Part shown: in pieces, positions 41,066-63,329 of the stretch
Layout: the number at the start of each line of letters is the position of its first letter
How positions within the stretch are numbered: the first letter of the stretch is position 1
IMG/VR virus record: IMGVR_UViG_3300009187_000021
Location: 24,947-88,946 of that record
Length of the DNA: 64,000 bases
Source of the DNA: a virus
Reading direction: 5' to 3' (one strand)
Program-made: the position numbers and the translations under genes
Notes under the pieces: generated by a model
Database searches by the model: none
Told to the model about the DNA's origin: nothing
The model's input: the letters and a program-made list of their open reading frames with translations, nothing else

Positions 41066-41674
41066 TTAAACTACTGCACACATTTGTGACTTGAGTGCGT
41101 GTTTGTATTTAGTCACATCATAGTTCAAAAACGGTGCATATTTTGTGCATTTTTGAATAAAATCTGGAAAGATCAAATCATCATCAACCCTTTTGGTCCA
41201 CATAGGAAAGAAGTTTAGGAATTGATTCATGATCATCACCGTCTCAAGTTTGATTCTCGACTGCACATAGTTATTATACAACAAAGGATACTCTCCGTCA
41301 ACCACTTTCAGCAACTGTTGTGGAGAGTCTACACTTTCCATGAGAGTGGATAGATCTTGTTGGAAGATGTAGAAGAGAGACTGTTGTGTTTTTTGCCATA
41401 CCTTAAAGGTAGACTCAGCGTCCTCAGAGAGGAGATCACCAGACCATAGTTTTGGTTTCTCTAAAAGATTAGAAACAAAGAAACCAAACATATCATCTTT
41501 ATTGTATTTACGAGATAACTTATAGAAAGTAAACTTGTCCTTTCTAATCATAAAAGAGTCTTGTGTTACATTTGTTTTACCAGAGTATTTTACAAAATCA
41601 TACTTCGAAGTAAAATGTAACTTCAATGCATGGAATAGTGCATAACATTCAAATCCACTGGATTCAACATTCAT
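41066..41674 (-). CDS. gp59: Helicase loader gp59
   Basis: ALKLHFT..YDF.KY.GKT, RKDKF.F.KL; synteny gp33-gp59-gp32. Confidence 0.93.
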   Translation of the reverse strand: MNVESSGFECYALFHALKLHFTSKYDFVKYSGKTNVTQDSFMIRKDKFTFYKLSRKYNKDDMFGFFVSNLLEKPKLWSGDLLSEDAESTFKVWQKTQQSLFYIFQQDLSTLMESVDSPQQLLKVVDGEYPLLYNNYVQSRIKLETVMIMNQFLNFFPMWTKRVDDDLIFPDFIQKCTKYAPFLNYDVTKYKHALKSQMCAVV

Positions 41675-42986: not shown

Positions 42987-43009
42987 TCGTTTCCTTATCG
43001 AGTTTTGAA

Positions 43010-43310
43010 AGTGGTAGGTTATTCTGTTACGAGGAAACCTACCGAAACCCTAAGCAGTGTTTAGGCTGCTAATGCGTATTCGCTATCATTTGCGTTTACT
43101 TGATTTATTTTTAACGACTGATATGTCGAGTAGCCAATAATTGTACTTATTACTCCGTCGAATCTAGTCAGGCCCATCAGAAGCATACTGTTTGGAACTT
43201 TTATTATGAGCATTGTTATCTCATTCACCAGTAGACAATACACTTCTGGTGGACCTGGTGGGATTCGCACCCACGTCCGAAATACCTTTCTAAAAATCAG
43301 TTTACTACCA
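43010..43310 (-). ncRNA. ssrA: Two-piece (circularly permuted) tmRNA gene; tag (A)ANDSEYALAA
   Basis: Acceptor piece comes first: GAC-GTGGG-TGCGAAT-CCCAC-CAGGTCC-ACCA (CCA ends at 43247). Intervening segment 43246-43176. Coding piece starts GGGCCTG-ACTAGATTCGAC at 43175 and pairs with CAGGTCC, including the G3.U alanine determinant. Tag codons at 43093-43061. Outer ends approximate. Confidence 0.92.
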
Positions 43311-43318
43311 TTGAGAAG

Positions 43319-43352
43319 TATTTAGTATATCAGGACTTGGCGAAGTTGTCAA
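43319..43352 (-). promoter_or_regulatory. Overlapping sigma70 promoter (TTGACA-17-TATACT) and late-like ACTAAATA upstream of the tmRNA gene
   Basis: TTGACA 43352-43347, TATACT 43329-43324, ACTAAATA 43326-43319. Confidence 0.75.
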
Positions 43353-48838: not shown

Positions 48839-48976
48839 TTACCTCATTAAAAGATAGGTTAATAATAGTATACCACAAAAAAACGCCGATGTCAAGAGGT
48901 AGAATTTCTTGACTCGGCGTCTTGCAATTTCTTCGTATATCTTTATTTGTTCAAAATATAATTCATCATTATTCAT
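48839..48976 (-). CDS. Putative 45-aa membrane peptide (MNNDELYFEQ...GILLLTYLLMR)
   Basis: Hand-translated; late-like GATAAATA at 49018-49011 upstream; one C-terminal hydrophobic stretch. Confidence 0.45.
   Translation of the reverse strand: MNNDELYFEQIKIYEEIARRRVKKFYLLTSAFFCGILLLTYLLMR
48867..48920 (-). promoter_or_regulatory. Terminator-like hairpin overlapping a sigma70 promoter (TTGACA-17-TATACT)
   Basis: ACGCCGAGTCAAGA...TCTTGACATCGGCGT-TTTTTT; -35 at 48895-48890, -10 at 48872-48867. Confidence 0.7.
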
Positions 48977-51892: not shown

Positions 51893-51938
51893 ATAATACT
51901 TACGATATGTTGTCATAATACTTACGATATGTTGTCAT
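51893..51938. repeat. Perfect 22-bp tandem duplication
   Basis: ATAATACTTACGATATGTTGTC x2, followed by AT. Confidence 0.95.
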
Positions 51939-53119
51939 TAAAAGGGAATATCATTATCTTCAGTTTGAACCACTGAAGGTGTTGTATTTGCAGTCATTTC
52001 GACTTTAGCATCAACTTTGGAGTATAGATCAAGAAATGCATTCTTAGTTTCTTCATCAAATCGATTCACACACATTTTAATTGCTTTAGTACGATCACCA
52101 AAGATTGCATATGCATGAGCAATATGGACTAGACGGCGAGTCGAGATGATCTCATCAACACCACCCTCAGCAAATGTCTTGCGAATAACATCTGCCCACT
52201 TAATAAGATTCTCTGCAAACTCATCATCATTCATCAAAGGCTTTAGAATCTTAGTCTCAACGGATGCAGACGGATACTCTTGTTCTACTGTAATAGGAAA
52301 ACGCTCAAGGAATGCATCATCAAGAATCTTTGCAAGAAAGCGACCCTCTTCAGATCCACGACCTTTAGTGTTTGCAGTTGCAACGATTTGAAAACCAGGT
52401 GCAGGTTTAATGTATTCACCAGATTTCTTGTTGAAATAAGACTTACCCTCTAGAATACCTTGCAGACACAATAGTTTCTCAGAACCACGATCCACTTCAT
52501 CGATAAGTAATACAGCACCACGTTTCATTGCAGTAATGACTGGACCATCACGATACACCACATTACCATCAACAAGTGTATTAGAACCAATCAAATCTGA
52601 TTCATCAGTTTCAATCGAGATATTGACACGGATACATTCACGTTGAAGTGCAGCACATACCTGTTCGACCATCATTGTTTTGCCATTACCAGAAAGACCA
52701 GTAATAAAAACAGGATAGAATTGTTTAGACTTAACGATTTGCATCAAGTCTTTATAGAAACCAAATGGAACATAGTTCTCATATTTCTCAGGAATTGCAG
52801 TATCAGCATCATCCTGTAGTTTCTTTTGTTTAAGAACCGTAACAGTAGCAACCATTTCAGGTGCCATTACGAAATTGCCTGGCACAGACACTACTTTAGG
52901 TGCATTGAATATGGGTTTGTCTTTATGCATAGCACCAAAAATAGTAGGGACACGGTATTGCCCACGACCGGCGCGATACTCTTGTCGTTGTACAATCCAG
53001 AAAGGATATGGAACATTCTTTTCATCAACAACACGTTGAATCTCATCCCGAGTGAGAATAGCATTCTCACCAAAGATTTCATTAGCAGCAATAATAAACG
53101 CTTTAGTATTCTGTTTCAT
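51938..53119 (-). CDS. MoxR/CobS-like AAA+ ATPase
   Basis: GLSGNGKT (Walker A), LLIDEVD (Walker B), ATANTKGRG, AFLERF, ISTRRL. Confidence 0.9.
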   Translation of the reverse strand: MKQNTKAFIIAANEIFGENAILTRDEIQRVVDEKNVPYPFWIVQRQEYRAGRGQYRVPTIFGAMHKDKPIFNAPKVVSVPGNFVMAPEMVATVTVLKQKKLQDDADTAIPEKYENYVPFGFYKDLMQIVKSKQFYPVFITGLSGNGKTMMVEQVCAALQRECIRVNISIETDESDLIGSNTLVDGNVVYRDGPVITAMKRGAVLLIDEVDRGSEKLLCLQGILEGKSYFNKKSGEYIKPAPGFQIVATANTKGRGSEEGRFLAKILDDAFLERFPITVEQEYPSASVETKILKPLMNDDEFAENLIKWADVIRKTFAEGGVDEIISTRRLVHIAHAYAIFGDRTKAIKMCVNRFDEETKNAFLDLYSKVDAKVEMTANTTPSVVQTEDNDIPF

Positions 53120-53230: not shown

Positions 53231-53314
53231 ACAATTTCCTTCTGTTTTCTCAGTCGATAGAACCATTATACACACGGTCTTGTCAAGTGTCAATCGTGTT
53301 GTTTTCACACAACA
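53231..53314 (-). promoter_or_regulatory. Early promoter cassette 1 (single palindrome)
   Basis: TGTTGTGTGAAAACAACA-CGA-TTGACA-17-TATAAT...GAGAAAACAGAAGGAAA. Confidence 0.85.
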
Positions 53315-53340
53315 GTCGAAAAAAAAAGATAACCCTCTTT

Positions 53341-53348
53341 TATAAATA
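53341..53348 (+). promoter_or_regulatory. T4 late promoter TATAAATA
   Basis: Exact consensus upstream of 53377. Confidence 0.75.
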
Positions 53349-53376
53349 AAAGATAACCCATCATCCGAGGACGCAT

Positions 53377-54096
53377 ATGTTATCATTTAAGTCTTTTCTA
53401 ACAGAAGGTCTACATGACCCAGCCAAGTTAAAAGCGATCTTCTTGGCAGGTGGTCCTGGATCGGGTAAGTCCCATGTCGTTAATAAAGTAAGAGGTGACT
53501 TAGGATTTAAGATGGTCAATTCAGATGACCTATTTGAAAAGGGTATTAAAAAACATGGGTTAGATCCTAAAATGCCTGAATCTGAAACTGAAAAACGAGA
53601 TGTTGTTCGTAAAAGGGCAAAAGAGTTAACCGCTAAAAAATCTCACCTATATCAACATGGTCGATTAGGAATGGTTATTGACGGTACCGGTAAAGACTTT
53701 GAAGAAATACATAAAAAGTCTGAACATCTAAAAACATTGGGTTATGATACTCATATGTTATTCGTCAATACATCATTAGCCGTTGCACATAAACGCAATT
53801 TAAAACGTGATCGATCTGTACCTGCACACATTGTCGATAATGCATGGCATAAAGTGCAAGACAATATGGGTAAGTTTCAATCTCATTTTGGTCGCGACAA
53901 TTTTACCGTTGTTGACAATTCTAATGACGGTGATGAATCTGGTGCATTAGATAACTTGCATAAACACATTCGCCGTATTGCAACAATGGATGTAAAGAAT
54001 CCCGTAGGTAGGGATTGGATTCGCCGTAAAGAAAAGACCATTAAACGAGGCGAACACATACCAACCAATATGCCACAAAAACGCAAGGTTGTCTAG
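53377..54096 (+). CDS. Zeta-toxin-like P-loop kinase with a putative capsid-targeting N-terminus
   Basis: KAIFLAGGPGSGKS, NSDD, VIDGTG, RN..R.R; N-terminal MLSFKSFLTE. Confidence 0.8.
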   Translation: MLSFKSFLTEGLHDPAKLKAIFLAGGPGSGKSHVVNKVRGDLGFKMVNSDDLFEKGIKKHGLDPKMPESETEKRDVVRKRAKELTAKKSHLYQHGRLGMVIDGTGKDFEEIHKKSEHLKTLGYDTHMLFVNTSLAVAHKRNLKRDRSVPAHIVDNAWHKVQDNMGKFQSHFGRDNFTVVDNSNDGDESGALDNLHKHIRRIATMDVKNPVGRDWIRRKEKTIKRGEHIPTNMPQKRKVV

Positions 54097-54098
54097 CC

Positions 54099-54200
54099 TG
54101 TTGTAACCATACAACGAGTGTTGTTTTTACACAACACGCTTGACTTTTCTTCGGACCAGAGTAGAATGGTACCTGTTGTGACGAAAACCGACAGGAAAAT
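54099..54200 (+). promoter_or_regulatory. Early promoter cassette 2 (two palindromes)
   Basis: TGTTGTAACCATACAACG-AG-TGTTGTTTTTACACAACA-CGC-TTGACT-16-TAGAAT. Confidence 0.85.
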
Positions 54201-54398
54201 ATGAATCTCACCGAAGCCAAAAGAATTCTGGATGTTGCTATTGTCAACCTCAATGTTGATCCTAATATCTCTATGTGGGATGCAATGGATAAATTGGTTG
54301 CTGTCGGTAAAAACAATTTGCGAGCGGATGTATATACCGCATATTGTATTGTAATGGATGAAATGTCATCCCAACGTGGTTTTAATGGTGGATATTGA
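54201..54398 (+). CDS. Hypothetical protein
   Basis: First ORF after cassette 2; AGGA RBS. Confidence 0.7.
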   Translation: MNLTEAKRILDVAIVNLNVDPNISMWDAMDKLVAVGKNNLRADVYTAYCIVMDEMSSQRGFNGGY

Positions 54399-54399
54399 A

Positions 54400-54636
54400 A
54401 TGGGTTTCGAAAAAAACATATTGAATAAGATTGCACCAATCCTAGAATCTGGTGATCATGCCGACTTTTTTAATGGTACTCTTTTTGTATCATGTAATGA
54501 TGTTAAGGCTAAATTGATTGCTCGCCAACTACAAGAGCAATGTTATGCTCGGATTGGTATTTCTAAAATAGAACCTGGCCAATACGCTTTTGATTTTCAA
54601 GCGTCAAATAAGAATGCCAAATTCAATTATGTATAA
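54400..54636 (+). CDS. Hypothetical protein
   Basis: Start re-assigned to MGFEK; FFNGTLFV...YAFDF. Confidence 0.7.
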   Translation: MGFEKNILNKIAPILESGDHADFFNGTLFVSCNDVKAKLIARQLQEQCYARIGISKIEPGQYAFDFQASNKNAKFNYV

Positions 54637-54859
54637 ACTACCCATGGGTATATGCCCTGCTTGCAATGGCGATAAAACAGATTGCCACAATTGTGGTGGA
54701 CAATATATGTACGGTACGCCAAAAGGCGAAGTACCATTGCGTCTCGATGGCACACCTTGTTTGCATGACTATGCTCATTCATTGTTGAATAGGCGCACCC
54801 TCCACAAATATACCTGTGAGTATTGTTTTGATTCTTTCACTATTGATTCGGGTGATTGA
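54629..54859 (+). CDS. Small zinc-binding (CxxC) protein
   Basis: CPACNG, CHNCGG, CxH...CxxC...IDSGD. Confidence 0.7.
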   Translation: MYKLPMGICPACNGDKTDCHNCGGQYMYGTPKGEVPLRLDGTPCLHDYAHSLLNRRTLHKYTCEYCFDSFTIDSGD

Positions 54860-54860
54860 C

Positions 54861-54916
54861 CGTTGCGTGAAAACAACACGCTTGACACCCGACGGAATCC
54901 GTGTAGAATGGATTAC
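54861..54916 (+). promoter_or_regulatory. Early promoter cassette 3 (single palindrome)
   Basis: CGTTGCGTGAAAACAACA-CGC-TTGACA-16-TAGAAT. Confidence 0.85.
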
Positions 54917-55057
54917 ATGATGAAGACACACACCAAACCACTGATCGGCCACGTGCCGAGACCGCATTGTCGGACACCGATCAAACCTGGTGTGCGGCAT
55001 TCTATTAAAACAAAATACAATCGTAAACCTAAACATAAGGAAGTTTATTGTGGGTAA
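54917..55057 (+). CDS. 46-aa basic protein, probably leaderless (weak ArfA-like motif)
   Basis: ATG 7 nt after the -10 box; ...KTKYNRKPKHK. Confidence 0.55.
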   Translation: MMKTHTKPLIGHVPRPHCRTPIKPGVRHSIKTKYNRKPKHKEVYCG

Positions 55058-55058
55058 A

Positions 55059-55289
55059 ATGTCTGCATTGGCATTGGATATTGAAGAGTCACTATGTGCT
55101 GGTGATGATATTGGCGATATTGCAATTCGTTATGGCGTCACCGTTAATGATGTTCTTAATATTAAAGAGCATATGATGGATTCTATTGATGATTATAATG
55201 ATTCAATGGATGGTGATTTTGATACTGCCATGGCCTCTGCTGGTTATGGTACCGATGAAGATTATGGTTGTTATGGCGATGATTATTAA
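55059..55289 (+). CDS. Acidic hypothetical protein
   Basis: Start re-assigned to MSALAL; DGDFDTAMASAGYGTDEDYG. Confidence 0.7.
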   Translation: MSALALDIEESLCAGDDIGDIAIRYGVTVNDVLNIKEHMMDSIDDYNDSMDGDFDTAMASAGYGTDEDYGCYGDDY

Positions 55290-55493
55290 ATGAAGTATTG
55301 TTGGCCTAAGAAACTATATTATGTCCGATGCCGTTGGATTGATTATCCCAACGGTGGTGGTCGAAACTTTATTGCCACTCCGCACCTGGGTCGTGCTCGT
55401 TACTATGCCAAACGATTGCCTTTAAAAATACGGCAAATTGATGTCCGTATTCGTGGTAAAAAACCGTATGTACTAAAAAATAGTTGGTTATAA
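55290..55493 (+). CDS. Basic hypothetical protein
   Basis: Abuts the upstream stop codon. Confidence 0.6.
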   Translation: MKYCWPKKLYYVRCRWIDYPNGGGRNFIATPHLGRARYYAKRLPLKIRQIDVRIRGKKPYVLKNSWL

Positions 55494-55531
55494 AATGAAA
55501 AAGTCTTTTATTAAATAAGAGAGTATAATAT

Positions 55532-57091
55532 ATGAAGATAGTTATTGTCGGCGGCGGTACCGCTGGTTGGATTGCAGCACTAATGATCAGTAAAAGGCAT
55601 CCATATCACGAAGTTGCTGTAATAGAATCTAGTAAAATAGGCATTATCGGTGTGGGTGAAAGTACCACAGGCCGAATGACGGATATTCTAGTAAATTTTG
55701 TTCAAGATTTCGGTTGCAATCATGATGAATTTATTGTTGAAACCGGTTCAACATTGAAATATGGCATTCGCCATAAGGGCTGGACAAACAATATCAATCG
55801 ATCATATTTTGGACCTATTGATGGATCTGATACGAGAAATTCTGTTCCTGACCCATTATTTTCATGGGGATTAAACAGATTAAACAACAATGATCTTAAC
55901 ACTATTTCCAAATGCGGTTATTGGGTAAACAACGGTCTTTCTAATTTTAACAAAAATTCAGGCAAATTTAATTCATACTGGCATGCTTTGCACGTTGATG
56001 CTTTCCTCGTGGGCAAATATCTCAAAAAGATTACCCTAAAAAGTAAAAGCGTTTCTCATATCGATGATGAGGTTGTCAATGTATCATTAAACAGTTCCAA
56101 TGGTTGCATAAAATCAGTAACATTAAAAAGTGGTCAAGTAGTTGATGGTGATTTTTTTATAGATTGTTCAGGTTTTCATAAAGTTTTAATGAAACATTTA
56201 TCCAATAATTGGATTAGTTATCAAAAAAACTTGCCGTTGAATACGGGTATGCCATTTCAAATAAAATATAAACGAAATGAAATGCCAGAACCATACACTA
56301 CTGCGTGGGCTCAAAAGAATGGATGGATGTGGCAGACTCCTCTAATGGATCGAAAAGGATGTGGATATGTATTTTCTGATGCGTACACTACAGCTGATAA
56401 AGCACAGGAAGAAATAGAAACTATCTTAGGCCATAAGATCGATCCTATTAAAGTTATTAAATTTGATGCAGGACGGCAAGAGAGTGCTTGGATTAAAAAT
56501 TGTCTAGTTATTGGATTAAGTAGTGCTCTACTAGAGCCACTAGAAGCCACTAGTATTCACTCCACTATTGTTCAATCGCAAAACTTTGTCTTTGAATATT
56601 TAAAGAGTAATATAGAAGATACAATGAATGAAGGGTCAAGACTTATTTACAATAAACGTACCGCAACATTGTATGATGATCTTAAAGATTTCTTAGTAAT
56701 GCATTACATGGGAGGTAGACAAGATAGTGAATTTTGGCAAATGATTAACACTGGTATAACTAAAACTCCATACGTTGAAGAATTGTTGTTAATGTCAAAA
56801 TCTAAAGTACCTAGTGTAAATGATTTTCCTAGTTATCCAGGAAGTGCAGGATGGCCATTGTATAGTTTTGTTATGGCAGGTTTAAATTTGATTAATCCTA
56901 AATGTGGTGAAAAAGACTTAGATATGGTATTACCTGGTAATCGAATAATGAGAGATTTAGCTCATAATCATTATTACGACTTACAAAGTCAATGGGCTAA
57001 TGAAGGACGCCAGTCTATGACATATAATGAGTTTATCTCCTACTTTAGGAATTTGCGACACAAGAACGGATTCTCAGATTTCAAGTATTGA
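55532..57091 (+). CDS. Flavin-dependent (tryptophan) halogenase family protein
   Basis: GGGTAGW, IGVGES, TLKYGI, FFIDCSGF, GWMWQTP, EPLEATSIH. Confidence 0.92.
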   Translation: MKIVIVGGGTAGWIAALMISKRHPYHEVAVIESSKIGIIGVGESTTGRMTDILVNFVQDFGCNHDEFIVETGSTLKYGIRHKGWTNNINRSYFGPIDGSDTRNSVPDPLFSWGLNRLNNNDLNTISKCGYWVNNGLSNFNKNSGKFNSYWHALHVDAFLVGKYLKKITLKSKSVSHIDDEVVNVSLNSSNGCIKSVTLKSGQVVDGDFFIDCSGFHKVLMKHLSNNWISYQKNLPLNTGMPFQIKYKRNEMPEPYTTAWAQKNGWMWQTPLMDRKGCGYVFSDAYTTADKAQEEIETILGHKIDPIKVIKFDAGRQESAWIKNCLVIGLSSALLEPLEATSIHSTIVQSQNFVFEYLKSNIEDTMNEGSRLIYNKRTATLYDDLKDFLVMHYMGGRQDSEFWQMINTGITKTPYVEELLLMSKSKVPSVNDFPSYPGSAGWPLYSFVMAGLNLINPKCGEKDLDMVLPGNRIMRDLAHNHYYDLQSQWANEGRQSMTYNEFISYFRNLRHKNGFSDFKY

Positions 57092-57106
57092 AATAGGTAA
57101 TATTAA

Positions 57107-57559
57107 ATGAAAAAAGCATTCATTAAACAAGTTCGTGATCTAGCGGATCAGAAGTTTAGCATTACAACGATTGCCAATAAACTTGGCAAACCTGTATTGG
57201 AAGTTTGTGAAGCAATTATGTTGCTCGACACGTTGCCTGCACCAAAGGTAAAACCACCGAAACCCGTAAAGGTTAAAGTCGTAAAACAAAAGTCTTATGT
57301 GCCAGTACCGCGCAAAGTTAAGAAAACAATTAGAGATGTTTTTACACCTAATATTTCTGAACAATCAAAGGCCACTCGGTTCATTGCAAAACCATACAAT
57401 GAGAATTTTCTTAAATCTGTTACCTTTGCCTCAATCGAAGAGGCAGTTAAATATTTGAATGAATTCACCGAGACTAAAATGCCTGCAAAAGACTGGTCAT
57501 TGGTCAATAAATTGTTTTTTGTAAAATCTAATGGTACCGTTGGTACGGTTGTATTATGA
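57107..57559 (+). CDS. Basic hypothetical protein with a possible N-terminal HTH
   Basis: SITTIANKLG segment; Lys/Pro-rich linker. Confidence 0.65.
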   Translation: MKKAFIKQVRDLADQKFSITTIANKLGKPVLEVCEAIMLLDTLPAPKVKPPKPVKVKVVKQKSYVPVPRKVKKTIRDVFTPNISEQSKATRFIAKPYNENFLKSVTFASIEEAVKYLNEFTETKMPAKDWSLVNKLFFVKSNGTVGTVVL

Positions 57560-57891
57560 CAATACCTGAAAGATGGATTATGGTTAAGATAACCATGGTT
57601 GAGGATGATGAAATCTTATATAAGATCTTTGCATCTTGGAATGGTGGTTTCTTGGGTAGTAGTTCTTGGAGGATGAATTCAGGTGTAACCAAAGTTACTG
57701 AGGACGATAAGTTCTTTTATTTTGAGGGTCATTCCGGTTCACTTTATCAATGTGATAAACAATCATATGGATCCAATCCGTTTTGTCTTGATGTATTGAA
57801 AGATTACATTGATCGCAGTAAACACCTTGCAGATATGCAGATTCTTCCTGATAATACTAATTTTATGGAGATAAACTATGGTAGCATTTAA
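57556..57891 (+). CDS. Conserved T4-like hypothetical protein
   Basis: YKIFASW.GG..GS.SWRMNSG...F.G.SGS.Y.C. Confidence 0.75.
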   Translation: MTIPERWIMVKITMVEDDEILYKIFASWNGGFLGSSSWRMNSGVTKVTEDDKFFYFEGHSGSLYQCDKQSYGSNPFCLDVLKDYIDRSKHLADMQILPDNTNFMEINYGSI

Positions 57892-58087
57892 ATTGCCAGA
57901 CCAAGAATGGTTAGGATATGATCCAGAACGAGGTAATCTTCACGGTTATACTTTTGACCAGATGCATGAATTTGCAAAAGAAATAATCGAACAATGCATC
58001 CGAATATGTGAATCGGGTAATGGAACTCAAATGACAAGCAATGGCGTGGCCGATGCAATTCGACAAAGATTTAAATCTGTTGCGTAA
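57878..58087 (+). CDS. Hypothetical protein (FA..I...C family)
   Basis: EFAKEIIEQC...AIRQRF. Confidence 0.65.
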   Translation: MVAFKLPDQEWLGYDPERGNLHGYTFDQMHEFAKEIIEQCIRICESGNGTQMTSNGVADAIRQRFKSVA

Positions 58088-58180
58088 AAACAACAAGTGT
58101 TGTTCGCCAGCAACACGCTTGACGGTCGGCAGGACCAGTGTAGAATAGTATCTGTGGTCGAGCGGTGGTACCCGCTCCGT
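58078..58180 (+). promoter_or_regulatory. Early promoter cassette 4 (two palindromes; leader hairpin)
   Basis: TGTTGCGTAAAAACAACA-AG-TGTTGTTCGCCAGCAACA-CGC-TTGACG-16-TAGAAT...TCTGTGGTCGAGCGG..CCGCTC. Confidence 0.85.
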
Positions 58181-58218
58181 CGTTTTATTATATTATTGTT
58201 TTATTGAGAGAATATAAA

Positions 58219-59049
58219 ATGCCCCGTGGAATTCCCGCTGCTGGTTTTCGTAATACCAAAAACAAACTTAATGCTATCAATACGCAATTGATGCAAATGG
58301 CTGAATCGTCCTTTTCAATCAATGAGCGATTCGGTTTCGTTTCTGATATGGTGACAATGCTCTCAAATGGTCATCAAGCGTCGGTTATTGTATCTGGTCC
58401 TGGTGGACTTGGTAAATCGTTTACTGTAATGGATGCACTCCGCAAGTCTGGATTGCAGGACGTTACTCTATTGGACGAGGCTGATGTTGGTTCCTCAATC
58501 AATACGGCAAAGACCTTCCGTGTTATCAAGGGTTACTCTACTCCTAAAGGTCTGTATCGTATCCTTTACGAGAACCGTAATTCGGTTATTGTTTTTGATG
58601 ATTGCGATTCGGTTCTTAAAGATCCAGTCTCATTGAACCTTCTTAAAGGTGCTCTCGATTCTTATTCGCGTCGTGTTATCTCTTGGCGCGCTGACTTTAA
58701 AGACGAGGATCTTCCTAATGTCTTTGAATTCAAAGGTCGTGTAGTGTTTATTTCCAATCTGCCATCCCATGCAATGGATCAGGCAGTTATTACTCGCTCA
58801 ATGGCCGTTGATCTTACAATGACCAATGCACAAAAGGTCGAGCGTATGCATCACCTGCTTGAGTTTGCCGATGACTTTTTGCCAGAGTTTGAAATGGAAC
58901 ATAAAGTCGATGCCGTGCTTCTTATTGAGAAATTGGTAGATCGTGTCAAAGAATTGTCGCTTCGGACTCTAATTCAAGTGACCAATATTCGCAAAGCGAA
59001 TCCAAATGGCAATTGGAAGAAATTGGCAGAGTATTGTATCGCAAACTAA
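58219..59049 (+). CDS. AAA+ type P-loop ATPase
   Basis: GPGGLGKS, VIVFDDCD, LLKGALDS, VFISN, SLR; start re-assigned to MPRG. Confidence 0.85.
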   Translation: MPRGIPAAGFRNTKNKLNAINTQLMQMAESSFSINERFGFVSDMVTMLSNGHQASVIVSGPGGLGKSFTVMDALRKSGLQDVTLLDEADVGSSINTAKTFRVIKGYSTPKGLYRILYENRNSVIVFDDCDSVLKDPVSLNLLKGALDSYSRRVISWRADFKDEDLPNVFEFKGRVVFISNLPSHAMDQAVITRSMAVDLTMTNAQKVERMHHLLEFADDFLPEFEMEHKVDAVLLIEKLVDRVKELSLRTLIQVTNIRKANPNGNWKKLAEYCIAN

Positions 59050-59063
59050 TCGGTACCGACGGT

Positions 59064-59167
59064 TGTTGCTGGCATACGACACTTCCGTTGCTTGCCAGCA
59101 ACACGTTGACAACCGACGGAACCAGAGTATAATAGATTCTGTGGTCGAGAAAAACGAAGGAAAAAAC
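59064..59167 (+). promoter_or_regulatory. Early promoter cassette 5 (two palindromes)
   Basis: TGTTGCTGGCATACGACA-CTTC-CGTTGCTTGCCAGCAACA-CG-TTGACA-16-TATAAT-AGATTCTGTGGTCGAGAAAA. Confidence 0.85.
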
Positions 59168-59371
59168 GTGTCGAAAGTAGATTATACTGTGTTCTGTTCC
59201 GATGTTGCGGATGCCTTTGATAGTGGTTGGTCGCCCGAGGATGTTGCATCATTGTTTAAACTTCCATTGAAGGATGTCTTGTCCTTTTATGAGGATTACA
59301 TTGATGCATATATGGTGGCTGTTGCCAATGATCCAGAAGTTGTGTTTGGTTTTGATAATTACCGGGAGTAA
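59168..59371 (+). CDS. Acidic hypothetical protein
   Basis: GTG start after the AAGGA RBS of cassette 5. Confidence 0.65.
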   Translation: MSKVDYTVFCSDVADAFDSGWSPEDVASLFKLPLKDVLSFYEDYIDAYMVAVANDPEVVFGFDNYRE

Positions 59372-59377
59372 TTGAGA

Positions 59378-59593
59378 ATGTTTGCGAAAACTGAAATTGA
59401 TCTTTTGATTGAAGTCGTGGTTAAACGTGAAAAGGCTAAAGGTTATTCCGATACCGAAGCTCGTATTTTTGCGTTGGGTTACTTGTCTTCTTTTTGTCAA
59501 AAGCACTTTATTGATGCTGCACCGAAAGCAAGACAAAAACACATCCGAATGGATGTCCTTGAGCGTATTGCTTGTGTCGCAGGAGACCTATAA
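59378..59593 (+). CDS. Hypothetical protein
   Basis: GGAG RBS; FALGYLSS motif. Confidence 0.65.
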   Translation: MFAKTEIDLLIEVVVKREKAKGYSDTEARIFALGYLSSFCQKHFIDAAPKARQKHIRMDVLERIACVAGDL

Positions 59594-59742
59594 TGATTGA
59601 TGATACTAAACAAAAATTGATTGACCGTGTTATTGGTCAAATCGAATTGGATTTAGAAAATCGTGATGTAACGGCAATTATTGAATTGTTGGATAAATTG
59701 TCTGTTTCTGTATTAGAATCCTATCTTCCTGAGGTTGAATAA
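59593..59742 (+). CDS. 49-aa hypothetical protein
   Basis: Hand-translated MIDDTKQKLIDRVIGQIELD...YLPEVE; AGGAG RBS. Confidence 0.65.
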   Translation: MIDDTKQKLIDRVIGQIELDLENRDVTAIIELLDKLSVSVLESYLPEVE

Positions 59743-59744
59743 TA

Positions 59745-60164
59745 ATGGCTACTCGCTCTGCAATTGCAATTGAAACTGGTCTGCCTGAAATGGGCCCATG
59801 CGTTATCCATGCCGTATATTGTCATTGGGATGGGTATGTTGAAAACAATGGTGCATTGCTTCTAAAGTATTTCGATTCTTTGCCTTCGGCGGTTGAATTG
59901 ATCAAGGGTGGTTCCATTTCATCCCTTGGTGAAGGTACTGATAATACTAAATTCTATTGCCGCGATATGGATCGTGAAATGGAACCCGCATCCGAATATG
60001 GGACTAGGGAAGAGTTTATTGAGGACTCTAATGGTCTTGAATATCTTTATATTCTAAATCAGAATGACGTTTGGGAAGTATTCAATATGAATAAACCATG
60101 GCGTGGATGGCAACCAGTCAAAGATGCATTGGAGTATGCATTGAAGTTTGCAAAGGCAGCGTAA
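59745..60164 (+). CDS. Conserved phage hypothetical protein (YCHWDGY family)
   Basis: M.TRS.I...VYCHWDGY...G..L...G.ISSL...EY.Y. Confidence 0.8.
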   Translation: MATRSAIAIETGLPEMGPCVIHAVYCHWDGYVENNGALLLKYFDSLPSAVELIKGGSISSLGEGTDNTKFYCRDMDREMEPASEYGTREEFIEDSNGLEYLYILNQNDVWEVFNMNKPWRGWQPVKDALEYALKFAKAA

Positions 60165-60359
60165 ATGCTGACGCAATCCGAGATTAATGCATTGATTGAA
60201 TTCGGTAATGCACCTCGCATGGTCCAAATGCAGGTGCTTTTAAATGCTGTATTGAATCCTGCCGTATCCCATGAGTTGGTGGCATATTACCGAGAGGCGA
60301 TGGAAATGTCAAGTGTTGCGTCGGAACAACAATCTGTTGCACAGGAACAACAGGGTTGA
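60165..60359 (+). CDS. Hypothetical protein (3' end runs through cassette 6)
   Basis: Abuts the upstream stop codon. Confidence 0.5.
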   Translation: MLTQSEINALIEFGNAPRMVQMQVLLNAVLNPAVSHELVAYYREAMEMSSVASEQQSVAQEQQG

Positions 60360-60418
60360 CCTCCGGACGGACCAGTGTATAATTGATTCTGAAGTCGAGA
60401 AAACACAAGGAAACGAAA
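60314..60418 (+). promoter_or_regulatory. Early promoter cassette 6 (two palindromes)
   Basis: TGTTGCGTCGGAACAACA-ATC-TGTTGCACAGGAACAACA-GGG-TTGACC-16-TATAAT-TGATTCTGAAGTCGAGAAAA. Confidence 0.85.
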
Positions 60419-60826
60419 ATGACACAAGCCAATCAAACCACCGCTGCGACCGAATACAAGTACACCCCATGGGATGAATTGTCCCGCCGTGACCAATTGG
60501 CCTGTATCTATTCGGATGCATATAAGGATGCATATAATTTCCGTCCTCGTGGTGTGGATACGTCCAATTGGACTGAGGCAATGTTTGAGTCTGAATTGGC
60601 TTATTTGCAAACCGTTATTGAGCGGAATGAGAATGTTCGCCTTGAGGATGAGGCATTGGCCGCAATTCGGTTGGAAGAAACCATCGATAAAATGATGGAA
60701 TCCGGTTGTCGTAATCGTGAAATGGCAATTCGTTGGTTGCATGATATCTATGAAACCCATGGTGATACCGAATACCTTGAGTATAATCTCGGTGTCAATT
60801 ATGGTTATTTTTCTGGTAAAAAGTAA
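60419..60826 (+). CDS. Conserved phage hypothetical protein
   Basis: YSDAYKDAYNFRPRG motif; start re-assigned to MTQAN. Confidence 0.8.
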   Translation: MTQANQTTAATEYKYTPWDELSRRDQLACIYSDAYKDAYNFRPRGVDTSNWTEAMFESELAYLQTVIERNENVRLEDEALAAIRLEETIDKMMESGCRNREMAIRWLHDIYETHGDTEYLEYNLGVNYGYFSGKK

Positions 60827-60984
60827 TGAGTTTTTATATTAATTGTGCCGAATGCCAGAACCGGCATTTGGTTGATGAAGTCGAATTCGTTGATGTCGAA
60901 GAGGATTACATTGGTCGGGACATTATGCATTTTGTATGTCCTGAAACTAAAATGTATTCCAAATCATTGGTGTATAAAGAATGA
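60826..60984 (+). CDS. 52-aa CxxC hypothetical protein
   Basis: Hand-translated MSFYINCAEC...VEEDYIGRDIMHFVCP. Confidence 0.65.
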   Translation: MSFYINCAECQNRHLVDEVEFVDVEEDYIGRDIMHFVCPETKMYSKSLVYKE

Positions 60985-61154
60985 ACGAACGAATTAAAGA
61001 ACTTGCCGAACAAGTATATGGTTCAGCACACTATGATGATTTCAAGTTTGCCGAGTTGATTGTAAATGAATGTTGCCGAATGATGGTAGATTTGGAAATT
61101 CAATACCCTGCCAATCTTACGGTACTGGAGATTAAAAAGCATTTTGGAGTATAA
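60981..61154 (+). CDS. 57-aa hypothetical protein, MNERIK family
   Basis: Hand-translated MNERIKELAEQ...KFAELIVNEC...IKKHFGV. Confidence 0.7.
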   Translation: MNERIKELAEQVYGSAHYDDFKFAELIVNECCRMMVDLEIQYPANLTVLEIKKHFGV

Positions 61155-61157
61155 TAT

Positions 61158-61352
61158 ATGAAAGTATGGGTTGATCCACCTAGTGGATGGCGATATGGAT
61201 TCCCTAAAGTATGGGATCAAGCATTGAATTCGGATTTTAATGCATGGCTTATTGCAGAAGGTTATCCGTGGAATGTAAAAGAATCTTATGGACAATATTT
61301 TTATTGCAGGCAATGGCCAGTAGAAGATGATAATCAATTATTGAATGGATGA
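61158..61352 (+). CDS. Conserved phage hypothetical protein
   Basis: VDPPSGWRYGFPK...WLI..GYP. Confidence 0.75.
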   Translation: MKVWVDPPSGWRYGFPKVWDQALNSDFNAWLIAEGYPWNVKESYGQYFYCRQWPVEDDNQLLNG

Positions 61353-61358
61353 CAATAC

Positions 61359-61438
61359 TGTTGTTTTTATACAACGTATTGACTTTCCACCGGACCAGCG
61401 TATAATGGATTCTGTGGTCGAGAAAAACAGAGGATTTT
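61359..61438 (+). promoter_or_regulatory. Early promoter cassette 7 (single palindrome)
   Basis: TGTTGTTTTTATACAACG-TA-TTGACT-16-TATAAT-GGATTCTGTGGTCGAGAAAA. Confidence 0.85.
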
Positions 61439-61672
61439 ATGATTGAATACGTTTTGATTGATAAAGAGATGGTCAATTACCATTTTTCTAAAAAAGAATT
61501 GCTTGATATTGCAAAATACCATGACGATTGGGCTTTTGGTCCACGCCATGCCTATGCATATTATATCGGTCGCAATCCCGAGGATACTGCCGATTTGAAT
61601 ACCTCCGATGTCGAGGATTTCATCATCCAATTCTATACCCAATTCAATGCCGAGTTTGGATTGACCTATTGA
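61439..61672 (+). CDS. Hypothetical protein
   Basis: Single ORF bracketed by cassettes 7 and 8; GAGG RBS. Confidence 0.7.
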   Translation: MIEYVLIDKEMVNYHFSKKELLDIAKYHDDWAFGPRHAYAYYIGRNPEDTADLNTSDVEDFIIQFYTQFNAEFGLTY

Positions 61673-61673
61673 T

Positions 61674-61779
61674 TGTTGCGTGAAAACAACGGAGGTGTCT
61701 CATCCATGCAACATCTTGACACCTCCCAGGATCCGAGTAGAATAGATTCTGTGGTCGAGAAAACAACAGGAAATTTGGA
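61674..61779 (+). promoter_or_regulatory. Early promoter cassette 8 (one intact and one degenerate palindrome)
   Basis: TGTTGCGTGAAAACAACG-GAGG-TGTCTCATCCATGCAACA-TC-TTGACA-16-TAGAAT-AGATTCTGTGGTCGAGAAAA. Confidence 0.85.
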
Positions 61780-62538
61780 ATGAAACTGCTAACTGCTCCA
61801 GTCGGTAACCCTAAGGTTGCAAAAGGTCTTGCATCAAACTATGCAACATATATCTTGCACCTTGCACCCGCAAATTTGTCGGGTTATGAGGTTTGTGCTA
61901 AACGAACCATCGGTTGCACCGATGCTTGTTTAAACCTTGCTGGTCGTGGTGGTATGTTTAAACGTGGTGAAACCACCAATGTAATCCAACAGGCACGTAT
62001 CCGCAAGACCAAATTGTTTTTCGAGGATCGTGTTGAGTTTATGCGGTTGTTGGTTGCTGATATTGAATTGGCAATTAAACAGGCGGCCAAGAAAGGTTTT
62101 ACACCTGTGTTCCGTCTTAATGGTACCTCTGATATTGCATGGGAAAAGTATTCGGTGGTTCGCAATGGCGTTGCCTTTATGAATATCTTCCATGCATTCT
62201 CGGATTGCATTTTTTATGATTACACCAAGATTCTTGGTCGTAAGATTCATGCCGCTTCCAATTACAGTCTGACCTTTTCTGCCGCTGATGGCAATGATGC
62301 CGACGTGACCAAAGCAATTGCTCAGGGTTATAATGTTGCGGTTGTTTTCGGTATCAAAAAAGGTACCGCATTCCCTGGTTCATATCTTGGTCGGTCTGTA
62401 TTCAATGGTGATGATTCCGACTTGCGGTTTCTTGATCCTAAGAATGTTATTGTCGGTCTTTATGCCAAGGGTAAGGCAAAGGCTGATACCACCGGTTTTG
62501 TAAAGTACCCAACAATCAATCTTAAACTTGCGGCTTAA
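61780..62538 (+). CDS. Gene product 88-like protein (Cys-cluster, radical-SAM-like)
   Basis: CAKRTIGCTDACL (Cx6Cx3C), RLNGTSDI, FYDYTK, LTFS, GDDSDLRFLD. Confidence 0.8.
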   Translation: MKLLTAPVGNPKVAKGLASNYATYILHLAPANLSGYEVCAKRTIGCTDACLNLAGRGGMFKRGETTNVIQQARIRKTKLFFEDRVEFMRLLVADIELAIKQAAKKGFTPVFRLNGTSDIAWEKYSVVRNGVAFMNIFHAFSDCIFYDYTKILGRKIHAASNYSLTFSAADGNDADVTKAIAQGYNVAVVFGIKKGTAFPGSYLGRSVFNGDDSDLRFLDPKNVIVGLYAKGKAKADTTGFVKYPTINLKLAA

Positions 62539-62550
62539 TAGGAATATATC

Positions 62551-63072
62551 ATGCCAAATTGGAATTCAAACCTTTTAACCGTCACTTCGGATGATCCTGA
62601 ATTGATGGCAAAGATTAAAGATGCAGCCGAGAAATCGGCCGAATCAGATTCGTTTTTTAATTTATTAGTACCTCGTCCTGAATCGGAAGAGGGTGATTGG
62701 TATTCGTGGAACGTCAACAATTGGGGTACCAAATGGGATACCAATGTTAATATCATCGACCAATCCGACAATGAAATTGTATTGTCTTTTGATACTGCGT
62801 GGTCACCACCAATTGGTTTCTATGCTGCATTAGAGGAAATGGGTTTCGAGGTTGATGCATTTTATTATGAACCCGGTATGTGTTTTGCTGGTCGGTACAT
62901 GGATGGTACCGATGATTATTACGAGTATTCAGGAATGAATTCAGAGGAAGTAAAAGAATTGCTTCCAATGGAATTAGATGAATGCTTTTGCATTTCAGAA
63001 TCAATGGCTGATTGGGAAGATGAGAATCAGGAAATAGAATTGGAAGACTATAATACAGAAGAGGAAGGGTGA
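62551..63072 (+). CDS. Api92/YubB-like ferredoxin-fold protein (DUF1281-like)
   Basis: MPNW..N, WY.W...NWGTKWD, FDTAWSPP, YYEPGMCFAG. Confidence 0.85.
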   Translation: MPNWNSNLLTVTSDDPELMAKIKDAAEKSAESDSFFNLLVPRPESEEGDWYSWNVNNWGTKWDTNVNIIDQSDNEIVLSFDTAWSPPIGFYAALEEMGFEVDAFYYEPGMCFAGRYMDGTDDYYEYSGMNSEEVKELLPMELDECFCISESMADWEDENQEIELEDYNTEEEG

Positions 63073-63081
63073 AGCAAGAGG

Positions 63082-63182
63082 TGTTGTGTCAAAACAACAC
63101 CTTTGTTGCTTTCCAGCAACGTATTGACACCTCCCAGGACCAGTGTATAATAGATTCTGTGGTCAAGAAAACAGGAAATTTG
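63082..63182 (+). promoter_or_regulatory. Early promoter cassette 9 (two palindromes)
   Basis: TGTTGTGTCAAAACAACA-CCTT-TGTTGCTTTCCAGCAACG-TA-TTGACA-16-TATAAT-AGATTCTGTGGTCAAGAAAA. Confidence 0.85.
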
Positions 63183-63329
63183 ATGAAATACGTTGTTGTT
63201 GCGGTTGGTTCTTCGGTGTTCGGTGCATACTTCCATGAGACCGTCCTTGCGGTTTCGGCTGAGTCGGTTTCGATGCTCCATTCGATTACCGTATCGCTTG
63301 CGCGGTCGATTGTTTCGGTCCTGTCTTAA
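63183..63329 (+). CDS. 48-aa hydrophobic peptide
   Basis: First ORF after cassette 9; AGGA RBS. Confidence 0.55.
   Translation: MKYVVVAVGSSVFGAYFHETVLAVSAESVSMLHSITVSLARSIVSVLS

What the first reader, a model, noticed from the sequence alone, without database searches (positions are those of the whole stretch)
53231..63182. Nine-copy palindrome-gated promoter cassette organising the early region
Seen: each copy has an 18-bp YGTTG-N8-CAACR box (degenerate in copy 8) ending 2-3 bp before TTGACN. Six copies have a second box 20-22 bp upstream, about two helical turns and so on the same DNA face. Eight of nine have a 16-bp spacer with a shared GGA(N)CC-type motif before TA(T/G)AAT. Most continue with a conserved leader GATTCTGTGGTCGAGAAAA...AGGA before the start codon. 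The N8 cores vary while the arms are conserved, the signature of a dimeric protein site rather than simple duplication. The two other sigma70 promoters found (43324-43352, 48867-48895) lack the box and have 17-bp spacers. Established: T4 early promoters use UP elements and middle promoters use a non-palindromic MotA box. Inference: an undescribed regulon in which a phage-encoded, virion-delivered or host dimeric factor (the box loosely resembles TGTTGT..ACAACA HexR-type sites) activates or silences the host-takeover genes together.
Basis: partly seen in the sequence, partly recalled or inferred. Interest (0 to 1): 0.82.

Follow-up and report, generated by a model that had tools for sequence, protein, structure and literature searches.

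The report
Host-type palindromic operator on phage promoters
Nine early-gene promoters of this uncultured freshwater T4-like phage each carry one or two copies of an 18-bp palindrome, and the same palindrome sits in front of outer-membrane porin genes of Betaproteobacteria, so the phage probably uses a still unidentified host regulator to control its early genes.

Summary
YGTTG-N8-CAACR occurs 13 times in the window (0.32 expected), only at 53297-63121. It is found nowhere else in the 89-kb record. Every copy lies just upstream of a near-consensus sigma70 promoter.

The unit (box, promoter, short conserved leader, ribosome site) has the build of a PeSL cassette, known from T4-like phages. As with PeSLs, rearrangement breakpoints against a close relative fall exactly at the cassettes.

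The box does not behave like the PeSL stem-loop terminator:
- its arms are invariant across about 250 copies in 80 related contigs;
- inner symmetric positions show no base-pair covariation;
- the hairpins are weak and lack U-runs;
- distances from box to -35 differ by about 10.5 and 21 bp within a phage.

This points to a dimeric DNA-binding protein.

In 30 genomes of a betaproteobacterial order, 11 have an exact box upstream of their best porin gene, about 37 bp before the -35. Control palindromes give none.

Best reading: a host factor's site, co-opted by the phage. The factor is unidentified, and whether it activates or represses is inferred only. This scan has noted the same box in other phage genomes.

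The parts
53297..53314 (-). Cassette 1 box (TGTTGTGTGAAAACAACA on the minus strand). It ends 3 bp before the -35.
53265..53293 (-). Cassette 1 promoter: TTGACA, 17-bp spacer, TATAAT. It drives a leftward 29-aa hydrophobic peptide (53231-53141) and the AAA_5 ATPase gene 53119-51938.
   Evidence: Pfam
54099..54136 (+). Cassette 2 tandem boxes (54099-54116 and 54119-54136).
54140..54167 (+). Cassette 2 promoter: TTGACT, 16-bp spacer, TAGAAT. Gene 54201-54398.
54861..54878 (+). Cassette 3 single box.
54882..54909 (+). Cassette 3 promoter: TTGACA, 16-bp spacer, TAGAAT. It drives a 46-aa basic protein (54917-55057) found in 10 box-bearing and 0 box-free related loci.
58078..58115 (+). Cassette 4 tandem boxes. 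The stop codon of the upstream gene lies inside the distal box.
58119..58146 (+). Cassette 4 promoter: TTGACG, 16-bp spacer, TAGAAT. A terminator-like hairpin in the leader (58160-58185) precedes gene 58219-59049 (phrog_1250).
59064..59103 (+). Cassette 5 tandem boxes. The distal box (59064-59081) has one mismatch; the proximal box (59086-59103) is exact.
59106..59133 (+). Cassette 5 promoter: TTGACA, 16-bp spacer, TATAAT. Conserved leader, then a GTG-start gene at 59168-59371.
60314..60352 (+). Cassette 6 tandem boxes. They lie inside the coding end of ORF 60165-60359, whose TGA stop overlaps the -35.
60356..60383 (+). Cassette 6 promoter: TTGACC, 16-bp spacer, TATAAT. Gene 60419-60826.
61359..61376 (+). 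Cassette 7 single box.
61379..61406 (+). Cassette 7 promoter: TTGACT, 16-bp spacer, TATAAT. Gene 61439-61672. In a related strain the whole cassette (61329-61438) is replaced by 31 nt.
61674..61713 (+). Cassette 8 boxes. The distal box (61674-61691) is exact. The proximal box (61696-61713) is degenerate in its left arm, and relatives keep the same variant (TGTCG or TGTCT).
61716..61743 (+). Cassette 8 promoter: TTGACA, 16-bp spacer, TAGAAT. It drives the GP88-family gene 61780-62538.
63082..63121 (+). Cassette 9 tandem boxes.
63124..63151 (+). Cassette 9 promoter: TTGACA, 16-bp spacer, TATAAT. Conserved leader, ATG at 63184.
41273..41333 (-). One-mismatch box at 41333-41316, a 14-bp gap, then TTGACG, 17-bp spacer, TATAAT and a leader with GTCGAGAA. 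It lies inside ORF 41066-41674, so its status is uncertain.

Best explanation
Each cassette is a PeSL-type early-gene module of a T4-like phage. It comprises one or two 18-bp palindromes (TGTTGY-N6-RCAACA), a near-consensus sigma70 promoter, a short conserved leader and a ribosome site.

The palindrome is the docking site of a dimeric DNA-binding protein. The protein is most likely a transcription factor of the presumed betaproteobacterial host. In host genomes that factor's site lies about 37 bp upstream of the -35 of porin and other outer-membrane protein promoters, centred near -81.

The phage places the same site at helically phased positions. In this genome the centres are near -46 and -67, in the zone where RNA polymerase alpha subunits and class I activators act. 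Host RNA polymerase together with the host factor would then fire the whole early gene set from the first minute, before any phage protein exists.

The repeated ~100-bp cassettes also act as recombination points that shuffle the small early genes.

Shown: the sites, their conservation, the phasing, the host counterpart and the breakpoints.
Inferred: that a protein binds, that it is the host's, and that it activates rather than represses.
For: 1. Enrichment and placement. 13 exact boxes against 0.32 expected, all directly upstream of promoters.

2. Conservation. GTTG-N8-CAAC occurs 254 times in 1.26 Mb of the window plus 80 related loci, against about 19 expected. Unselected preferences also appear: Y at position 6, R at position 13 and an A/T-rich core. 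Of 189 distinct boxes, 169 have a strong promoter within 60 bp on one side.

3. Not a selected hairpin. Symmetric inner positions show no covariation: 6/13 z=0.5, 7/12 z=-2.4, 8/11 z=-0.3, 9/10 z=-2.5. RNA hairpins are -2.7 to -8.5 kcal/mol for 11 of 12 boxes, and only a loose T-richness follows some of them.

4. Phasing. Offsets are discrete within each phage: here 2-3 and 23-24 (and 14 at the possible tenth site); L058 1 and 13; L056 and L070 6-7 and 15-16; L051 7, 17 and 27. Within-phage differences peak at 9-11 and 20-22 bp. Permutation gives p=0.0008 and 0.003.

5. Host counterpart. For the best Porin_4 gene of each of 30 genomes of a betaproteobacterial order, 11 have an exact box and 15 a box with at most one mismatch within 550 bp upstream. 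That is 11 exact boxes in 15.9 kb, against 1 in the other 94.9 kb of those loci and 0 for four control palindromes.
- The box ends 36-38 bp before the porin -35 in six inspected cases. That distance continues the phage series 6, 16, 27.
- In two genomes (G196, G197) the porin box is the only exact box in the whole genome.
- Other intergenic host boxes precede FadL-like and OmpA-like outer-membrane proteins and a cytochrome c. One of them is again 37 bp before a -35.

6. Host class. The phage carries a tmRNA gene that scores best with the betaproteobacterial tmRNA family. Its DNA is found in freshwater lake samples.

7. Cassette role. Against relative L040, two gene blocks are swapped, and every breakpoint lies at a cassette.

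8. Precedent. T4-like cyanophages carry 1-16 host NtcA sites (GTA-N8-TAC) per genome (PMC3037559).
Against: - No binding protein is identified, in host or phage.
- The host of this phage is not known. The tmRNA has no BLAST-level relative in 201 genomes of that order.
- This genome's offsets (2-3, 14, 23-24) are 3-5 bp out of phase with the series 6/16/27/37 that includes the host porin promoters. The geometry may therefore differ from the host's.
- The promoters already have near-consensus -35 and -10 elements, so they may not need an activator.
- The same tandem motif occurs in at least 118 other viral contigs of 28-61% GC, many clearly unrelated, and in genomes of Thaumarchaeota, Actinobacteria and others. 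More than one protein family may read this motif, and a phage-encoded reader is not excluded.
- The closest cultured relatives (Melnitz, HTVC008M) have no box.
- Copies and relatives share ancestry, so the counts are not independent events.
Confidence: 0.55

Rival explanations
1. The box is the operator of a phage-encoded or virion-delivered dimeric regulator. This could be an early-gene shut-off repressor or an activator made from one of the cassettes. The likeness to host porin sites would be mimicry or coincidence.
For: - The motif is very widespread in unrelated viral contigs, often as arrays of 3-8 copies.
- Box-free complete relatives exist (G006, G007).
- Several small early proteins occur only in box-bearing loci. 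One example is the 46-aa basic protein 54917-55057, found in 10 box-bearing and 0 box-free loci.
Against: - None of the box-specific proteins tested matches a DNA-binding family.
- No gene family recurs next to the tandem boxes across 116 viral loci; the top clusters appear in 9 loci.
- Promoters that fire first cannot depend on a protein that has not yet been made.
- The host sites show that a cellular reader of this motif must exist.
Confidence: 0.25
2. The palindrome acts as an RNA or DNA stem-loop that terminates or attenuates transcription coming from the upstream unit. This is the role proposed for the stem-loops of PeSLs.
For: - It has the same position as the PeSL stem-loops (PMC2839356, PMC4122927).
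- More distant relatives have true GC hairpins followed by T-runs at this place.
- All boxes can fold, and the one at 63077-63104 reaches -14 kcal/mol.
Against: - It is the arm sequence that is conserved, not the pairing.
- Stems are 5-6 bp with 6-8 nt loops and no U-run.
- Distances to the -35 are helically phased.
- The same box stands 37 bp upstream of host promoters.
- Contigs from RNA libraries run across cassettes 7, 8 and 9. This is weak evidence, because such libraries can hold DNA.
Confidence: 0.08
3. The cassettes are only recombination modules. The shared sequence, box included, is kept alike by gene conversion or spread of one mobile unit, and the box has no regulatory role.
For: - Breakpoints lie at the cassettes.
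- A related strain lacks cassette 7 exactly.
- PeSL mini-circles are documented (PMC2839356).
Against: - Homogenisation would keep the cores alike too, yet the cores differ while the arms do not.
- The box is kept across phages whose promoters, spacers and leaders have diverged.
- The box occurs at host genes.
Confidence: 0.06
4. The boxes are iterons of a replication origin, like the four phased 18-19 bp dyads of ori-lambda.
For: - The architecture is that of tandem phased 18-bp dyads with A-rich cores.
- DnaA boxes lie next to boxes in some contigs (L073, L296, L344).
Against: Here the boxes are dispersed over 10 kb, one or two per promoter, each tied to a -35. No local array of three or more exists in this genome.
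Confidence: 0.03

Closest known systems
PeSL (promoter-early stem-loop) cassettes of T4-like phages (Arbiol et al. 2010, PMC2839356; Comeau et al. 2014, PMC4122927)
   Same: - Both are found in T4-like myoviruses.
- Both are repeated ~100-bp intergenic modules: an inverted repeat just upstream of a sigma70-type early promoter, then a Shine-Dalgarno site and start codon.
- Both are concentrated among small genes of unknown function.
- In both, rearrangements and indels between close relatives fall at the modules.
   Different: - PeSL stem-loops are stable and differ in sequence between phage groups (polyG/polyC in RB49; A3-4G3...C3T3-4 in nt-1). They were shown or assumed to terminate transcription.
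- Here the repeat is a weak 5-bp-arm palindrome with a fixed arm sequence across a large clade and no pairing covariation.
- It is helically phased with respect to the -35 and has a counterpart at host promoters.
Host NtcA sites (GTA-N8-TAC) in T4-like cyanophage genomes (Sullivan et al. 2010, PMC3037559)
   Same: - A T4-like phage carries many copies of a host transcription-factor palindrome with an 8-bp spacer in front of its genes.
- This is read as exploiting a host regulon.
   Different: - NtcA and its signal are known; here the factor is unknown.
- NtcA sites typically replace the -35 (own knowledge). Here the -35 is intact and the site lies upstream.
- The half-sites differ (GTA versus GTTG).
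Class I activator sites such as CRP at -61.5, -71.5 and -82.5 (own knowledge of E. coli promoters)
   Same: - A palindromic dimer site lies upstream of the -35.
- It works only at helically phased distances.
- The host porin box near -81 and the phage series near -50, -60 and -71 fit that pattern.
   Different: - The arm sequence and spacer differ (TGTGA-N6-TCACA for CRP).
- This genome's sites near -46 and -67 are out of phase with the CRP positions.
- Activation is not shown.
T4 early promoters with A/T-rich UP elements, and MotA boxes of middle promoters (PMC2988021; own knowledge)
   Same: Strong sigma70 promoters are used at once by host polymerase, with an added element in the -40 to -60 zone.
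   Different: - UP elements are not palindromic and are read by the alpha subunit itself.
- The MotA box replaces the -35 and is read by a phage protein.
- I did not test whether this clade has MotA or AsiA.
Ori-lambda iterons (own knowledge)
   Same: 18-19 bp dyad repeats with A-tracts, spaced about two helical turns apart and bound by dimers.
   Different: The lambda iterons form one array inside the O gene at the origin. They are not units attached to many promoters.

Membership tests
PeSL cassette | Found in a T4-like myovirus genome | tested here: met
   A gp6-like baseplate wedge protein (23365-25473) matches T4-like phages. The best matches are pelagimyophage HTVC008M and Methylophilales phage Melnitz, at 39-40% aa identity.
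PeSL cassette | Composite of an inverted repeat, a sigma70-like early promoter, a Shine-Dalgarno site and a start codon, repeated many times | tested here: met
   Nine cassettes with this order of parts.
PeSL cassette | Concentrated in a variable region of small genes without known function | tested here: met
   Most genes between the cassettes have no Pfam or PHROG function. Gene content differs from relatives.
PeSL cassette | Indels and rearrangements between close relatives fall at the cassettes | tested here: met
   The block swap against L040 has breakpoints at 59105, 60304-60312, 61668-61674 and 63065-63104. A related strain lacks cassette 7 exactly.
PeSL cassette | The stem-loop is a stable structure that terminates transcription | tested here: inconclusive
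   Hairpins are mostly -2.7 to -8.5 kcal/mol with no U-runs and no pairing covariation. Termination itself cannot be measured here.
PeSL cassette | Recombination between cassettes yields mini-circles | not testable with these tools
   This needs inverse PCR or long reads from a lysate.
Operator of a dimeric DNA-binding protein | Dyad symmetry with conserved half-sites that vary independently of each other | tested here: met
   GTTG and CAAC were fixed by the search. Beyond them, the unselected flanking and inner positions are biased: T at position 1 in 182 of 221 copies, A at position 18 in 169 of 221, Y at position 6 and R at position 13. Positions 6 and 13 do not covary.
Operator of a dimeric DNA-binding protein | Fixed or helically phased position relative to the promoter | tested here: met
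   Offsets are discrete within each phage. Differences peak at 9-11 and 20-22 bp, with p=0.0008 and 0.003.
Operator of a dimeric DNA-binding protein | A protein binds it | not testable with these tools
   No candidate was found by neighbourhood, profile or family searches.
Host regulon site co-opted by a phage | The same motif lies at a consistent promoter position in genomes of the host group | tested here: met
   Exact box upstream of the best porin gene in 11 of 30 genomes (15 of 30 with at most one mismatch), 36-38 bp before the -35 in six inspected cases. Control palindromes give 0. One of the 30 genomes (G184, no box) is unpublished; without it the count is 11 of 29.
Host regulon site co-opted by a phage | The phage infects that host group | tested here: inconclusive
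   The only evidence is a phage tmRNA that scores best with the beta_tmRNA family (113 bits) and a freshwater origin. There is no DNA-level match to 201 genomes of the order.
Intrinsic terminator | G+C-rich stem followed by a U-run | tested here: not met
   Stems are A/T-rich and 5-6 bp long. The next 12 bases are the following box or the -35, not a T-run. The loose scan flags only three box hairpins on the transcribed strand or its complement.
   No HexR model or regulon data were used. The host contexts found were outer-membrane proteins, not sugar catabolism.

The most novel reading that the evidence does not exclude
The phage uses the host's outer-membrane-protein activator in two ways. 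A few sites per genome fire the early genes at once. Later, hundreds of replicated phage genomes, each with a dozen or more high-affinity sites, draw the factor away from the host's very few sites; in two sampled genomes the porin site is the only exact box. This would switch off synthesis of porins, which are common phage receptors. The result would be receptor shut-down, and a self-limiting early phase, without any dedicated phage protein.
Probability: 0.07. Interest if true: 0.85.

Novelty: new variant of a known kind. Interest (0 to 1): 0.62.

Why it matters
Early transcription in the very large group of environmental T4-like phages that resemble cyanophages and pelagiphages is poorly understood. 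This element marks a defined, testable regulon:
- a fixed 18-bp site;
- dozens of natural variants in spacing and copy number;
- a counterpart at the most strongly expressed envelope genes of freshwater Betaproteobacteria.

Finding the protein would name an unknown regulator of porin genes in a major bacterial group. It would also show how phages plug into that regulator.

The box also gives a sequence-only hint of host class for uncultured phages. And it shows that at least some 'stem-loops' of PeSL cassettes may be protein sites rather than terminators.

Tried and rejected
- A viral scan with a spacer pattern one base too long (N9 instead of N8) returned only chance hits, L017-L038.
- Near-identity and protein searches of the cultured-phage collection found no close relative.
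- Gene profiling (present in box-bearing G004 and G005, absent from box-free G006 and G007) gave 24 candidates. Those tested by Pfam were a glycosyltransferase, an epimerase and proteins without a family; none was a DNA binder.
- Clustering of genes next to tandem boxes in 116 other viral loci gave no dominant family.
- The one scan of bacterial genomes for tandem boxes returned at least 120 stretches. They were dominated by a repeat family in one Parabacteroides genome, by a site at the start of a winged-helix gene in Thaumarchaeota, and by small-gene operators in Actinobacteria and Chloroflexota. This says nothing about this phage's host.
- A class-wide count in 151 genomes showed a rough 2:1 excess over the control by my reading of the table. 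Most hits in the richest genomes lie inside genes. That sample includes one unpublished genome, G123 (1 box, 0 control), and nothing rests on it.
- No regulator gene lies next to the porin genes; the upstream neighbour is often a conserved enzyme gene.
- Literature searches for the motif found nothing useful.
- The tmRNA gave no host by BLAST.
- Contigs from RNA libraries cannot show transcript starts. Parts without cover are not evidence.
- Melnitz and HTVC008M have no box.

Full report
**What is in the sequence.** The window is the last 64 kb of an 88,946-bp viral record that CheckV puts at 53% complete. A gp6-like baseplate wedge protein places the phage among T4-like myoviruses. Its nearest cultured relatives are pelagimyophage HTVC008M and Methylophilales phage Melnitz, at 39-40% aa identity. 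Its DNA is held by freshwater lake metagenomes.

The pattern YGTTG-N8-CAACR occurs 13 times, against 0.32 expected. All copies lie between 53297 and 63121, and none lies elsewhere in the record. Anchoring on TTGAC gives nine cassettes: one on the minus strand at 53293 and eight on the plus strand.
- the proximal box ends 2-3 bp before the -35;
- six cassettes have a second box 20-22 bp upstream;
- eight have a 16-bp spacer with a GGACC-type motif;
- copies 5-9 share the leader GATTCTGTGGTCGAGAAAA.

A possible tenth site at 41301-41273(-) has a one-mismatch box 14 bp upstream, but it lies inside an ORF.

**Relatives.** The GP88-family early protein (61780-62538) retrieved 80 related viral loci at 93-49% identity, several from complete genomes of 160-172 kb. 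GTTG-N8-CAAC occurs 254 times in this 1.26 Mb, against about 19 expected. Positions that I did not select are also biased: Y at 6, R at 13, and an A/T-rich core. Of 189 distinct boxes, 169 have a strong promoter within 60 bp on one side.

The box persists in phages whose promoters differ, for example TTGCCA...TGTAGAAT in L058 and L073, and whose spacers and leaders have diverged. More distant relatives lack it. At the same place they have ordinary GC hairpins with T-runs (L084, L091, L100), A/T-rich upstream tracts (L066) or other repeats (L085). In complete relatives only some promoters carry a box: 5 of 23 in G004 and 1 of 11 in G005. In this genome 8 of 11 by the same filter do.

**Known kind.** The unit is built like the PeSL cassettes of T4-like phages: an inverted repeat, a sigma70 early promoter, and a ribosome site. 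PeSLs sit among small variable genes and act as recombination points (PMC2839356, PMC4122927). That role is visible here. Against L040, blocks 59105-60164 and 60312-61668 are swapped, and all breakpoints lie at cassettes. The 1.8-kb block holding a tryptophan-halogenase gene is absent from L040 and L039. A related strain in a lake RNA library lacks cassette 7 exactly.

**Hairpin or protein site.** Four results argue against the stem-loop terminator reading given for PeSLs:
1. Across 132 distinct boxes, the symmetric inner positions do not covary. For 6/13 there are 67 complementary pairs against 64.5 expected; 7/12 and 9/10 have fewer than expected. So only the fixed 5-bp arms can pair, and the two halves vary independently.
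2. The RNA hairpins are weak (-2.7 to -8.5 kcal/mol for 11 of 12) and are not followed by U-runs.
3. Distances from box to -35 fall into discrete classes within each phage. Differences between cassettes of one phage peak at 9-11 bp and 20-22 bp. After dropping near-duplicate loci, the 10.5-bp periodicity beats 5000 uniform draws (p=0.0008) and 5000 permutations among loci (p=0.003).
4. The same box stands upstream of host promoters (next section).

Relatedness of copies and phages inflates all these counts, so they are not independent events.

**Host counterpart.** I treated this as a lead and tested it. A tandem-box hit happened to lie in a betaproteobacterial MAG, and I used that genome as a centre. 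I took the best Porin_4 gene in each of 30 genomes of its order.
- An exact TGTTG-N8-CAACA lies within 550 bp upstream in 11 genomes, and a copy with at most one mismatch in 15.
- That is 11 exact boxes in 15.9 kb of upstream windows, against 1 in the other 94.9 kb of those loci. Four control palindromes gave none.
- One of the 30 genomes (G184) is unpublished and has no box; without it the count is 11 of 29.
- In six inspected cases the box ends 36-38 bp before a weak -35 (TTGTCA, TTGCCC, TTGCTC...), with TGGCAGAAT-type -10 regions. This puts its centre near -81.
- In two genomes this is the only exact box in the whole genome.
- Other intergenic boxes precede FadL-like and OmpA-like outer-membrane proteins and a cytochrome c, once again 37 bp before a -35.

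A cellular protein must therefore read this motif at envelope-protein promoters. The distance of 37 bp continues the phage series 6, 16, 27.

**Which protein.** It is unknown. No regulator gene lies beside the porin genes. Phage genes found only in box-bearing genomes include no recognisable DNA binder.

The tandem motif is also common in unrelated viral contigs of 28-61% GC, often in arrays of 3-8, sometimes next to DnaA boxes. It also occurs in distant bacteria and archaea. More than one protein family may read it, so a phage-encoded reader cannot be excluded.

**Mechanism proposed.** Host RNA polymerase, together with a host dimer bound at the box, fires the early cassettes at once. The tandem box two turns upstream would allow cooperative binding.

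The host sites are shown. That the phage infects this host group rests only on a phage tmRNA that scores best with the betaproteobacterial family and on the lake origin; BLAST gave no kin.

Activation is inferred from two things: the upstream, phased position, and the weak -35 of the host promoters. Repression, or sensing of host envelope state, is equally open.

One point remains unexplained. This genome's offsets (2-3, 14, 23-24) and those of L058 (1, 13) are 3-5 bp out of phase with the series 6/16/27/37.

**Novelty.** PeSL cassettes are described, and so is the use of host factor sites by T4-like phages (NtcA in cyanophages, PMC3037559). I found no paper on this box. This scan has noted the box before in other phage genomes. 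I rate it a new variant of a known kind.

Noticed in passing
window 43006-43366 (-): A phage-borne tmRNA gene. Rfam beta_tmRNA scores 113 bits and the permuted tmRNA model 126 bits. ARAGORN gives the tag peptide ANDSEYALAA. A box-less sigma70 promoter stands at 43352-43324. No BLAST-level relative was found in 201 genomes of a betaproteobacterial order.
   Followed up: partly
window 55286-57106: A 1.8-kb block holds a 67-aa ORF and a flavin-dependent tryptophan-halogenase gene (55532-57091; Pfam E=6e-90). The block is absent from close relatives L040 and L039, where the flanking genes abut. It looks like an insertion without its own cassette.
   Followed up: partly
window 60165-60359: This 64-aa ORF carries both boxes of cassette 6 inside its coding end (...SVASEQQSVAQEQQG). 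Its TGA stop overlaps the -35 TTGACC. The site is therefore kept within coding sequence.
   Followed up: no
window 58160-58185: A terminator-like hairpin (GAGCGGTGGTACCCGCTC followed by a T-rich tail) lies in the leader, right after the cassette 4 promoter and before gene 58219-59049. It may be an attenuator.
   Followed up: no
window 53377-54096 and 51938-53119: The genes flanking the divergent cassette 1 are a zeta-toxin/AAA_33-type kinase-like protein (plus strand) and an AAA_5 (MoxR/CbbQ-type) ATPase (minus strand). A 29-aa hydrophobic peptide gene (53231-53141) precedes the ATPase gene.
   Followed up: no
L058 8130-8200 and 8750-8830; L073 9130-9200; L106 (same as L058): In the GC-richer relatives, a conserved ~40-nt element (…CATAGCACTGGCGCACCGAGGCTCTAATCCGCCCCTGC…) directly follows several box-bearing promoters in place of a protein gene. 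It may be a small RNA or a tRNA-like piece.
   Followed up: no
L073 9500-9555; L296 about 9040-9100; L344 about 590-660: DnaA-box-like sequences (TTATCCACA / TGTGGATAA) lie next to TGTTG-N8-CAACA boxes in some contigs. This hints at an origin-linked use of the motif in some phages.
   Followed up: no
window 61329-61438, 59590-59741 and 60999-61140 (run X19): A related strain in a lake RNA library has cassette 7 replaced by 31 other letters. It also has two further clean deletions of 152 and 142 bp, so the population varies at and between cassettes.
   Followed up: partly
window 43349-45757 (-): An 802-aa protein with five fibronectin type III repeats (Pfam E=3e-50) lies next to the tmRNA gene. 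It is probably a virion surface or fibre protein.
   Followed up: no
L155, L180, L196 and others (Parabacteroides sp. PF5-6): One Parabacteroides genome holds dozens of arrays of 3-4 tandem 22-bp units, TGTTGATAATTATCAACA plus 4 bp. This is a separate repeat family that shares the arm sequence.
   Followed up: no
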